A stretch of DNA of 64,000 nucleotides from IMG/VR virus record IMGVR_UViG_3300037606_000123, positions 59,032-123,031 of that record; one strand, given 5' to 3'. The stretch is from a virus. The position numbers and the translations under genes were made by a program. Of this stretch, positions 19,010-49,630 are shown one piece after another. The notes beneath the pieces are model-generated. The model was not told where the DNA came from, did no database searches, and was given only the letters and a program-made list of their open reading frames with translations. How positions within the stretch are numbered: position 1 is the stretch's first letter; each line of letters begins with the position of its first letter.

Positions 19010-19816
19010 TTATTTTATTTTTTCAAAATACCAATTGAACCAGTAGTATGTTGGTTTTTTTATTATATGTGTATTATTTTCTAATTTGAATTTAATAATA
19101 TCATTATCTGAATATATTACTTCAATTATATTATTTTCAAAAACTGTTTTTAATTGACCAAGTTCATTAAAAACATTTACTTCTTTCATAATTGTTTTAT
19201 ATATACCTGGTTTAATTTTAAACCAGTTTAAAATATGGTTCCATATTTTACCAGTAATTCTAATACGATCTTCTATTTTTAATTTTTCAATTTCAGTACA
19301 AATAAATTTCGGTTTTAATTCTAAACCAAATTTTTCAAATTTACCAAATATTTCAGCTTCACCAATATTAAATTTTATATAAAGATTAAAACCTATTCCG
19401 ATATTTAATGGAACCATTTTTAAAATAGTTAATTTATCTATTTCAATTTCTTGAACACTATTTTTACCATTTACATATGCTTGAATACCATCTGGAAATA
19501 AATATTGTGTTAATGCATTTACATAATACCACTGTTGTAATGAATTTTTTTTATCATAACCATAAACTGATCCACCACGTTGCGCACTCCAACTAGATAA
19601 AGGAACACCATTTAAATGAAATGTACCTATTGATGTAATATCACCATGCATTAATGTAACATCAGCATCCGGATCTATATCTGGATTTAACCAATCTGGA
19701 ACATCTATCATATCATTACAATTGTTATATTGTATATTCGTTCCACCCGTTGATGAACCATCTAATACAGGATTAAAAAATTCAAATACTTGTTCACGAT
19801 TACATAAATATTTCAT
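19010..19816 (-). CDS. Hypothetical protein (late-type element upstream)
   Basis: 268-aa ORF with AATATATA immediately upstream on the minus strand. Confidence 0.65.
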   Translation of the reverse strand: MKYLCNREQVFEFFNPVLDGSSTGGTNIQYNNCNDMIDVPDWLNPDIDPDADVTLMHGDITSIGTFHLNGVPLSSWSAQRGGSVYGYDKKNSLQQWYYVNALTQYLFPDGIQAYVNGKNSVQEIEIDKLTILKMVPLNIGIGFNLYIKFNIGEAEIFGKFEKFGLELKPKFICTEIEKLKIEDRIRITGKIWNHILNWFKIKPGIYKTIMKEVNVFNELGQLKTVFENNIIEVIYSDNDIIKFKLENNTHIIKKPTYYWFNWYFEKIK

Positions 19817-47917: not shown

Positions 47918-47997
47918 ACAATTCAAATAAAATATAATAAAAAACCGATAAACTTTTATCGGTTTTTTTTATATAATAAAAAAAAATAATAAACAAA

Positions 47998-49104
47998 ATG
48001 GATAATAATAATAAAATAATTAAAAAATGGAAACCAATAGTATCTACTATAGTGTTATCAGAAAATGTATCTATTGATAATATCAATGTAGAAAATATAT
48101 GTATTTTAATTGAATCACTAGCTATAAACGCAATTGATAATTCACTTAATGATAATAATTTTTTACCTAATTTATTATTATCTATTATTAGATTATATAA
48201 AACTGATGTTAAATTTACAATTAGTAATACAAATATAACTACACCAGAAACATATACATTAATGTTAATAGATGATATTGTAAAAGGAACATTACAAATA
48301 GATTTAGATTTAGCTTTGACTCAAGTATTTCAACAACATTCATACAATGTTTCTATAAATAATATTACATTTATTAATAATCAAATTATATTAAAATGTA
48401 CACCAAACACAACAAAAAAGAAATTTATTATACCAACAAATACATTATGCCCAATTAAGGCAGAACAAGAAATTGCTATGTTAATTGCAGATTATAAAGA
48501 TAATATAGCATTTGACAATACAACAGGCTTAATATATAATGACGGTTCCAAAGATTTACTACATTCAAATGAATATTGGTTTGCTGATTCTGGTGATAGT
48601 AAAACAATTAATAACGTAACACCGTTACCTAACTTTCAAGAGTGTTCACATTTAGAAATAGAGGATGTTTTTAACACATCTGAGAACACTTTAAAAGATT
48701 TATATAATCTACAGAAGGATATACAAGAAAATGTATATGGTTACGATTTTAATAAATTACAATCTGGTCCATTACCGGAGTTAAGACAATTTTGGGATTG
48801 GAATTATCATGCAATTCAAGACGAATTAAGAGAAGCATTTACAGCATTAGGTGGAATGTCTGATGGTATATCTAATGGTGTTTGGAAACCATGGAAAAAA
48901 TCATATACAGAACAAGCACCAAATATGACATATAATGATATGTCTGAACGTGATAAAAAAGAATTAAAAATGGAATTAATTGATATTCAACATTTTTTAT
49001 TCAATATCATGCTATCAGTCGGAATGACAGAACAAGAATTAATGAATTTTTATTTTGCAAAAAATCAAGAAAACCGCCGAAGAAATGCTAGTGGTACTTA
49101 TTAA
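47998..49104 (+). CDS. Chimeric protein: capsid-N-terminus-like + portal-clip copy + dimeric dUTPase/dCTPase (gp56-like)
   Basis: KWKPIV N-terminus as in gp23; 48421-48592 copies portal 56501-56672; C-terminal all-alpha dUTPase motifs LQ..IQ, DEL.E, WKPWK, ELIDIQHF, KN.EN..R. Confidence 0.85.
   Translation: MDNNNKIIKKWKPIVSTIVLSENVSIDNINVENICILIESLAINAIDNSLNDNNFLPNLLLSIIRLYKTDVKFTISNTNITTPETYTLMLIDDIVKGTLQIDLDLALTQVFQQHSYNVSINNITFINNQIILKCTPNTTKKKFIIPTNTLCPIKAEQEIAMLIADYKDNIAFDNTTGLIYNDGSKDLLHSNEYWFADSGDSKTINNVTPLPNFQECSHLEIEDVFNTSENTLKDLYNLQKDIQENVYGYDFNKLQSGPLPELRQFWDWNYHAIQDELREAFTALGGMSDGISNGVWKPWKKSYTEQAPNMTYNDMSERDKKELKMELIDIQHFLFNIMLSVGMTEQELMNFYFAKNQENRRRNASGTY
48421..48592 (+). repeat. 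Dispersed inverted repeat of portal gene segment 56501-56672
   Basis: About 21 mismatches in 172 nt by hand alignment, with a 46-nt identical run at 48459-48504. Confidence 0.95.
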
Positions 49105-49115
49105 TAAATAAATAT

Positions 49116-49427
49116 ATGAATGAATTACAACAAAAAACATTTGATAAAATACTTAATGCGTCTAATTTTATTGAAAAAAATAATAAACAATCAAAAACAT
49201 GTATTGTTAATAGAAAATTATTTAGTATTTTGATGAAAGATGAAAGACTTATATGTAACTCAACAACAGAAATAATATCTAAGGTGTGTTATGGTCAATA
49301 TAAAGATATTACATTTATATGTGATGAATTTATACCTAATGACAATAAATATATTTATGAATTTATAAATAATAAATTAACTAAAATATTATGTATTGAA
49401 GGTTTAGATACATACATACATACATGA
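49116..49427 (+). CDS. Stand-alone fragment resembling the C-terminal part of the major capsid protein
   Basis: KILNASNFI..CIVN..GQYKDITFICDEFIPND versus gp23 KVVQASYFV..YVVT..GVIDGIKLYVDPFMSPA. Confidence 0.55.
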   Translation: MNELQQKTFDKILNASNFIEKNNKQSKTCIVNRKLFSILMKDERLICNSTTEIISKVCYGQYKDITFICDEFIPNDNKYIYEFINNKLTKILCIEGLDTYIHT

Positions 49428-49440
49428 AATTTAATATATA

Positions 49441-49596
49441 ATAATGTCATTGCACAAAGTGTGAAGGACGTGGCGTGATTAGGCCGTACAAGTTTACAAC
49501 AAATTTTACAATTTAAATATATGTAAATTAATCCTCTTTACTTATGGAGTAAAGTTAAAATCCCCAAATATGTTAAACATATTTGGGGTTTTTTTA
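49441..49596 (+). ncRNA. Candidate small non-coding transcript
   Basis: Lies between AATATATA (49433) and a terminator (49562-49595); has a GC-rich 5' part and a CTTTACT/AGTAAAG hairpin; no ORF longer than 6 codons from ATG. Confidence 0.3.
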
Positions 49597-49630
49597 TATA
49601 AATATAAATAAAAGGCATTAAAGGAATAAT

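What the first reader, a model, noticed from the sequence alone, without database searches (positions are those of the whole stretch)
49116..49427. Stand-alone capsid fragment directly after the chimera
The 103-aa ORF aligns by eye with the gp23 C-terminal region (K.xxASxF(I/V), a hydrophobic strand, then G....I....D.F). Together with the upstream chimera, the operon carries pieces of the two main head proteins outside the head module. Capsid proteins trigger several defence systems (for example CapRel and Lit), so a two-gene structural-mimic locus is a coherent hypothesis.
Basis: partly seen in the sequence, partly recalled or inferred. Interest (0 to 1): 0.7.

Follow-up and report, generated by a model that had tools for sequence, protein, structure and literature searches.

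The report
Stand-alone capsid A-domain mini-protein
A giant salt-lake phage carries a small intact gene whose 103-residue product is a very diverged, free-standing copy of the central (axial) domain of a T4-type head-shell protein. The gene is real and has relatives elsewhere, but its job, most plausibly mimicry of the shell protein, has not been tested.

Summary
The ORF 49116-49427 (+) is real. It is a 103-codon open frame in 19% G+C DNA, starts 11 nt after the upstream gene's stop and is followed by a strong terminator.

- Profile-profile comparison of the ORF plus two 137-aa metagenomic homologues against the phage's capsid family gives probability 90%, E 1.4e-6 (ORF aa 2-82 against capsid aa 428-517).
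- The score is 49, against 22 or less in 100 shuffles and 19.5 or less for 19 unrelated families.
- A blind ESM Atlas structure search put Gp23 clusters first.

My own AlphaFold model was too weak to confirm the fold.

The piece is not a copy of this phage's own capsid gene. There is no DNA similarity, and it scores better against a distant gp23 clade.

The gene lies in a variable slot only 1.7 kb from the capsid gene, and close relatives lack it.

The decoy idea is untested. It gains plausibility because Avs7/8/10 sensors bind the capsid A-domain (PMC13581612).

This scan has noted similar capsid-fragment mini-genes on other phage DNA.

The parts
49116..49427 (+). orf103: a 103-aa free-standing protein derived from the MCP A-domain (helix, strand, helix, then three strands)
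47998..49104 (+). Upstream co-transcribed gene of 368 aa: MCP-like N-terminus (aa 4-39), portal piece (aa 132-207), dCTPase/dUTPase-type NTP pyrophosphohydrolase (aa ~208-368)
48417..48606 (+). Portal-gene piece inside the upstream gene, 88% nt identical to the phage's own portal gene (window 56487-56675, minus strand)
47939..47968 (+). Hairpin terminator that closes the preceding operon and marks the upstream limit of the two-gene unit
47971..47984 (+). Promoter-like motif ATATAATAAAAAAA, also found exactly before the portal gene and the 821-aa head gene
49408..49425 (+). (ACAT)4 microsatellite across the last codons of orf103. A contig from a second salt-lake sample has one unit fewer, which changes the tail from ...YIHT to ...YIHEI
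49428..49561 (+). 134-nt untranslated stretch with small hairpins and a patch that is G+C-rich by eye. It has no Rfam match and no counterpart in relatives
49562..49588 (+). Intrinsic terminator (12-bp stem plus a T run) that ends the two-gene unit. DNA conserved with relatives resumes at about 49572
51167..52918 (-). The phage's gp23-type major capsid protein (583 aa). It is the reference for the comparison and is not part of the unit

Best explanation
Shown:
- orf103 is a genuine accessory gene of a giant T4-like phage of roughly 400 kb.
- It belongs to a rare family of free-standing small proteins (103-137 aa, three members found).
- These proteins are remote homologues of the axial (A) domain core of gp23-type major capsid proteins. 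By my mapping these are the helix, strand, helix and hairpin elements usually labelled alpha5, betaH, alpha6 and betaI-betaJ(-betaK), equivalent to aa ~431-535 of the 583-aa MCP.
- The protein has none of the rest of the HK97 fold (N-arm, E-loop, P-domain, insertion domain), so it cannot itself be a shell subunit.
- It lies in a variable slot and is absent from the closest relatives.

Inferred:
- It is co-transcribed with the dCTPase-like fusion gene from a promoter-like element shared with the portal and a neighbouring head gene, so it would be made when head proteins are made.
- It works by mimicry. It presents the capsomer-forming face of an MCP monomer and competes for something that binds that face.
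- My first choice for that partner is a host immune receptor that senses unassembled MCP through its A-domain (Avs7/8/10-like). The fragment would occupy the receptor without supplying the P-domain and E-loop contacts.

Odds: MCP-derived accessory protein about 0.8; mimicry of any kind about 0.45; immune decoy specifically about 0.3.
For: A real family under constraint:
- phmmer against 1.84 billion representatives finds P0003 (E 1.4e-4).
- A profile search adds P0005.
- The BLASTP pair gives E 8e-14 at 33% identity, with shared hydrophobic positions, and all members end within 5 residues of a shared GLD motif.

MCP homology:
- hhalign gives probability 90%, E 1.4e-6.
- The shuffle and reversal controls stay well below the observed score.
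- In a panel of 20 real families only the MCP stands out.
- The ORF is the second-best hit of the MCP HMM in the whole contig.
- The blind ESM Atlas structure search puts two Gp23 clusters first (TM 0.67 and 0.64).
- The AlphaFold model built from the family alignment has the order of helices and strands that I would expect of an A-domain core, and the top weak Foldseek hits are capsid proteins.

Accessory status:
- The slot between the o237 homologue and the PolB N-terminal half holds different genes in L005 and L004.
- The family is absent from a complete 391-kb relative.

Operon and timing:
- Terminators flank the two-gene unit.
- The ATATAATAAAAAAA motif is shared with the portal and a head gene.

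Plausibility of mimicry:
- Related phages also carry other MCP-piece genes.
Against: - No functional data exist, and no RNA or virion data are available for this uncultured phage.
- Identity to the MCP is only about 15% (11 identities in about 72 aligned positions), and several near-invariant MCP residues are lost (for example the Pro after the invariant Asp).
- The piece resembles a distant MCP clade more than the phage's own MCP. That is awkward for a decoy meant to stand in for the phage's own capsid protein.
- A free A-domain could as well trigger a sensor as block it.
Confidence: 0.3

Rival explanations
1. Assembly modulator or weapon against rival phages. The fragment binds MCP subunits at the capsomer interface. 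It either holds back premature self-assembly of the phage's own MCP or poisons capsomer formation by a co-infecting phage of the gp23 clade that it most resembles.
For: - It is homologous to the region that forms intra-capsomer contacts (PMC13581612 calls this face penton/hexon-forming).
- It shares a promoter-like motif with the portal and a head gene.
- It lies 1.7 kb from the MCP gene.
- It scores better against a distant MCP clade than against its own lineage, as expected if the target is another phage's capsid.
Against: - It is absent from the closest relatives, so it is not needed for assembly.
- It lacks the MITxINEF-type targeting tag that other notes of this scan report on many proteins of this phage.
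- Nothing shows binding to any MCP.
Confidence: 0.18
2. MCP-derived, but with no capsid-related role today. It would be a leftover or a re-used small fold carried in a recombination-prone slot, either neutral or doing something unrelated.
For: - The slot is variable and is flanked by two terminator/promoter-like cassettes that are 76% alike.
- In relative L005 a homing-endonuclease-like ORF duplicates the MCP's 3' end, so head-gene scraps do arise in these phages.
- The divergence from any MCP is extreme.
Against: - The frame is open over 103 codons in 19% G+C DNA.
- Two homologues of 137 aa, at 30-34% identity, keep the hydrophobic pattern and the shared GLD motif near the C-terminus. This points to selection on a folded protein.
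- The most conserved block of the small family coincides with the most conserved block of the MCP region.
Confidence: 0.22
3. Not capsid-derived at all. The resemblance would be a chance match between two alpha/beta segments, and the protein would have another fold, for example thioredoxin-like.
For: - BLASTP, Pfam, PHROGs and NCBIfam find nothing.
- VIA-align's best Z on my model is 3.6 for thioredoxins, against 2.5-2.8 for HK97 capsids.
- The reverse search with the small-family HMM does not rank full-length MCPs first.
Against: - Two independent MCP alignments give hhalign probabilities of 84-90%, while shuffles, the reversed query and 19 other families stay at 22 or below.
- The blind ESM Atlas structure search puts Gp23 clusters first and second.
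- The 6-mer NASNFI is exact at the homologous place in other gp23-type MCPs.
- There is no CxxC motif, and P0003 has a single Cys.
Confidence: 0.12

Closest known systems
T4 gp23/gp24-type major capsid and vertex proteins (Pfam PF07068; HK97 fold)
   Same: Profile-level homology to the A-domain core (MCP aa ~428-517). The shared motifs are K..K...AS.F(I/V), an (I/V)V(T/N) strand followed by a helix, and I...D.F.....IY.
   Different: Only about 105 of about 580 residues are present, with no N-arm, E-loop, P-domain or insertion domain. It is below every curated threshold, about 15% identical, and cannot form a shell.
237-259-aa MCP-derived proteins of more distant relatives (L019 16381-17127, L008 17433-18167 and others), found here
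   Same: They are also free-standing genes built from the C-terminal half of a gp23-type MCP (hhalign against the MCP: probability 91%, MCP 331-554). They occur in the same broad group of giant phages.
   Different: They are longer and sit at a fixed place 5-6 kb downstream of the MCP. Similarity to orf103 is not significant (E 0.036), so they are probably an independent derivation.
MCP recognition by Avs7/Avs8/Avs10 STAND receptors (PMC13581612)
   Same: The part of the MCP that these sensors grip, the capsomer-forming face of the A-domain of monomers, is the part that orf103 copies.
   Different: No phage-encoded A-domain fragment is described there as inhibitor or trigger in the passages I read. 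No sensor of this phage's unknown host is known.
Gol region of T4 gp23 and the Lit protease; CapRel-SJ46 and the SECphi27 MCP
   Different: They detect the MCP through short sequence motifs (PMC13581612, Discussion), and orf103 is only about 15% identical to the phage's own MCP. By my own recollection the Gol region lies in the N-terminal part of gp23, outside the region copied here.

Membership tests
gp23-type major capsid protein (Pfam PF07068) | Scores above the curated Pfam threshold | tested here: not met
   No Pfam hit at E <= 1 for orf103. P0003 and P0005 also have none.
gp23-type major capsid protein (Pfam PF07068) | Complete HK97 fold (N-arm, E-loop, P-domain, A-domain) of about 500-600 aa | tested here: not met
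   The protein has 103 aa and aligns only to MCP aa ~428-517(-535).
gp23-type major capsid protein (Pfam PF07068) | Homology of the segment that is present to the MCP A-domain region | tested here: met
   hhalign probability 90% and 84% against two MCP alignments, with shuffles and 19 control families far lower. HMM rank 2 of 1295 ORFs.
HK97-fold A-domain (structure) | The predicted structure superposes on solved HK97-fold capsid proteins clearly better than on other folds | tested here: inconclusive
Thioredoxin-like fold proteins | CxxC (or CxxS) active-site motif at the start of the first helix | tested here: not met
   The five Cys of orf103 are scattered (C29, C47, C58, C69, C93), and P0003 and P0005 each have one Cys.
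Phage anti-defence decoy or mimic proteins | Binds and blocks a defence sensor, or relieves defence when expressed | not testable with these tools
   No co-folding or wet assay is available here. The only support is the literature on A-domain sensing.
Head-packaged cargo proteins of this phage (MITxINEF-type N-terminal tag, from earlier notes of this scan) | N-terminal MIT(T/N)INEF-like tag | tested here: not met
   orf103 starts MNELQQKTFDK. The tag is described in notes e1-5949830 and e1-5949826.

The most novel reading that the evidence does not exclude
orf103 and its relatives are natural capsid mimics. The free A-domain would occupy host receptors that sense unassembled major capsid protein (Avs7/8/10-like) without activating them. 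That would make it the first phage-encoded decoy for capsid-sensing immunity, and one example of a wider, undescribed class of capsid-fragment mini-genes in giant phages.
Probability: 0.2. Interest if true: 0.85.

Novelty: new variant of a known kind. Interest (0 to 1): 0.55.

Why it matters
Capsid proteins are now known to be main targets of bacterial pattern-recognition receptors, and the A-domain's capsomer-forming face is their common handle (PMC13581612). A phage gene that encodes just that handle, kept as an intact free-standing protein in an accessory slot, gives a concrete candidate for two open questions. First, do phages counter capsid sensing with decoys? Second, do phages interfere with each other's head assembly? 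Together with the other MCP-piece genes seen here in related phages, it suggests that re-use of capsid fragments is a recurrent strategy in giant phages that has not been described. The two reviews I searched name no MCP decoy.

Tried and rejected
Sequence searches for relatives of orf103:
- tblastn of orf103 against 50,697 phage records: no match.
- The word-based search of 5.8 billion proteins returned only the protein itself.
- IMG/VR and JGI metagenome scans with orf103, P0003 or the family profile: no locus.
- The family is absent from five related phage records, including a complete 391-kb genome.
- PDB sequence search with the family profile: only designed immunogens at E 0.03 or higher.
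- Pfam, PHROGs and NCBIfam: nothing meaningful.

Other checks:
- The phmmer hits P0002 (OmpA/Ig-repeat protein) and P0004 (long repeat protein) were rejected as chance matches. Both match in five repeated stretches rather than one.
- Rfam on 49000-49700: nothing above threshold.
- Fusion to the upstream gene by frameshift: rejected. That gene ends in a double TAA, I saw no slippery heptamer in the 13-nt overlap of the two frames, and it ends like its stand-alone homologue in L005.
- Alternative genetic code (TAG=Q, as in Lak phages): not needed.
- Sequencing runs: no RNA holder is listed, only contigs of two salt-lake DNA runs.
- The positional counterparts in L005 (72 aa) and L004 (163 aa) show no similarity to the MCP or to orf103.

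Full report
**Context**

The window is part of a 123-kb IMG/VR virus contig (CheckV completeness 31%) from a salt-lake metagenome. It is very A+T-rich (23.7% G+C). The phage has a gp23-type major capsid protein (MCP; 51167-52918, minus strand; Pfam Gp23), a T4-type portal (55785-57515, minus strand) and the N-terminal half of a split family-B DNA polymerase. A relative with 63% MCP identity is a complete 391-kb genome with terminal repeats, so this is a giant T4-like phage. The standard genetic code fits.

**The ORF**

- ORF 49116-49427 (+) encodes 103 aa, from ATG to TGA.
- It begins 11 nt after the double stop of the 368-aa upstream gene.
- It lacks a Shine-Dalgarno sequence, as do nearly all genes here.
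- A 134-nt untranslated stretch and a strong terminator (49562-49588) follow it.
- A second hairpin terminator (47939-47968) precedes the upstream gene, so the two genes form a unit.
- 14 nt before the upstream gene's start lies ATATAATAAAAAAA. The same exact 14-mer sits before the portal gene and the 821-aa head gene. With one mismatch allowed there are 23 matches against 4.1 expected. I infer co-expression with head genes from this motif alone.
- An independent assembly (Logan) of the source run has one 5.7-kb contig that spans the 3' part of the upstream gene, orf103, the polymerase half and the MCP gene.

**Is it a capsid piece?**

Direct methods fail:
- BLASTP against the phage's own MCP finds nothing.
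- Pfam, PHROGs and NCBIfam find nothing.

Other evidence supports the resemblance:
- A full HMMER search of 1.84 billion representatives found one true relative, P0003 (137 aa, E 1.4e-4). A profile search added P0005. The BLASTP pair gives E 8e-14 at 33% identity.
- The three-member alignment (A2) compared with a 55-sequence MCP alignment (A3) gives hhalign probability 90.4%, E 1.4e-6, score 49.3. ORF aa 2-82 align to MCP aa 428-517.
- Controls: 100 column shuffles score at most 22.2 and the reversed query scores 21.
- Against 20 real family alignments built from related loci, only the MCP stands out (score 45). The other 19 families score 19.5 or less, and one of the two highest of these (19.3) is itself an MCP-derived family.
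- The MCP HMM, run without filters on all 1295 six-frame ORFs of the contig, ranks orf103 second (E 0.022). The N-terminus of the upstream gene ranks fourth.
- A blind search of the ESM Atlas with its own model of this protein returned two Gp23 clusters as the best structural neighbours (TM 0.67 and 0.64 over 96-99 residues).

**Origin**

- orf103 shares no DNA similarity with the phage's own MCP gene (19% against 36% G+C).
- It scores consistently better against MCPs of a distant clade (37-40% identical to the phage's own MCP) than against its own lineage. Mean phmmer scores are 5.9 against -0.7 bits, and hhalign scores are 44.5 against 29.3.
- The hexapeptide NASNFI is exact at the homologous place in P0107 and P0094.
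- By contrast, the portal piece in the upstream gene is a young copy of the phage's own portal gene (88% nt identity over 190 nt).
- So the two 'head pieces' of the locus have different histories.

**Synteny**

- In L005 (MCP 76% identical) the order is the o134, o163 and o237 homologues, a stand-alone 164-aa NTP pyrophosphohydrolase, an unrelated 72-aa ORF, the polymerase half, an HNH-like ORF, then the MCP.
- In L004 the same slot holds a trimeric-type dUTPase and a 163-aa ORF.
- Conserved DNA resumes at about 49572.
- The slot 47918-49571 is therefore variable, and orf103 is a lineage-specific accessory gene. It is absent from the complete relative.
- The two terminator/promoter-like cassettes that flank the unit are 76% alike. 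This recalls the regulatory cassettes thought to drive gene shuffling in T4-type phages (my own knowledge, not tested here).

**Related phenomena**

- More distant relatives carry a 237-259-aa protein 5-6 kb downstream of the MCP. It is derived from the C-terminal half of the MCP (hhalign probability 91%).
- Other records hold ORFs with N-terminal or C-terminal MCP pieces.
- Earlier notes of this scan describe similar capsid-fragment mini-genes in other giant phages. I did not test those notes.

**Function**

Nothing is shown. The protein cannot be a shell subunit. It has no signal peptide or membrane segment that I could see by inspection, and no MITxINEF-type tag.

The literature I could search names no MCP decoy. 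[quoted passage not shown] That is the part orf103 copies.

My readings and their odds are:
- Mimicry of that face, with an immune decoy as first choice: about 0.3.
- Assembly modulation or interference with rival phages: about 0.18.
- MCP-derived, but with no capsid-linked role today: about 0.22.
- Chance resemblance to the MCP: about 0.12.

**Verdict**

The gene is a new, free-standing variant of the gp23-type capsid family whose role is unknown but testable.

Noticed in passing
L005:11840-12433 (+): An HNH-endonuclease-like 197-aa ORF lies directly after the MCP gene of a close relative. It ends with a copy of the MCP's own last residues (KIEDESGILY). It looks like a homing-element insertion that duplicated the capsid gene's 3' end.
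   Followed up: no
L019:16381-17127, L008:17433-18167, L023:8931-9671, L014:16369-17079, L006:16637-17413: A conserved family of 237-259-aa proteins lies 5-6 kb downstream of the MCP in more distant relatives. It is derived from the C-terminal half of the MCP (hhalign probability 91%, MCP 331-554) and has no Pfam match.
   Followed up: partly
G001:C1:306850-306987; G003:C1:51808-51942; G004:C1:143060-143158: Further ORFs in related giant phages contain short MCP-like pieces. A 290-aa ORF matches MCP positions 45-92 (E 2e-8), a 285-aa ORF matches positions 53-89, and an 85-aa ORF matches positions 484-518.
   Followed up: no
window 47971-47984 (+), 55742-55755 (-), 57528-57541 (-), 19055-19068 (-): The exact 14-mer ATATAATAAAAAAA sits 14-16 nt before the start codons of the fusion gene, the 821-aa head gene and the portal gene. 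With one mismatch allowed there are 23 matches against 4.1 expected. It is a candidate promoter element of this phage.
   Followed up: partly
window 47949-47986 and 49574-49611: The terminator plus promoter-like cassettes on either side of the two-gene unit are 76% alike. They are possible recombination substrates for swapping cassettes in this variable slot.
   Followed up: no
window 49408-49425: An (ACAT)4 microsatellite lies at the 3' end of orf103. A contig from a second salt-lake sample (run X2) is otherwise identical over 49315-49469 but has one unit fewer, which changes the last residues of the protein.
   Followed up: partly
window 49428-49561: The untranslated stretch after orf103 has a patch that is G+C-rich by eye (about 49455-49495) and several hairpins. 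The window 49425-49600, which also includes the terminator, folds better than shuffles (z -4.3). It has no Rfam match and no counterpart in relatives.
   Followed up: partly
window 48459-48504: A 46-nt exact repeat is shared by the portal piece in the fusion gene and the real portal gene. It breaks the Logan assembly graph here. Both flanks of the piece are diverged copies, so the fusion is not a mis-join.
   Followed up: yes
P0003 / P0005 residues ~15-33 and ~46-62: The 137-aa homologues carry the MCP-like helix twice (DLWDKITDGAQYI and EIYDQIIKVSESI). orf103 has it once.
   Followed up: no
window 49631-51115 (+): The N-terminal half of the family-B DNA polymerase ends 52 nt before the convergent MCP gene. 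The same split is kept in LR745206, LR756504, L004 and L005.
   Followed up: no
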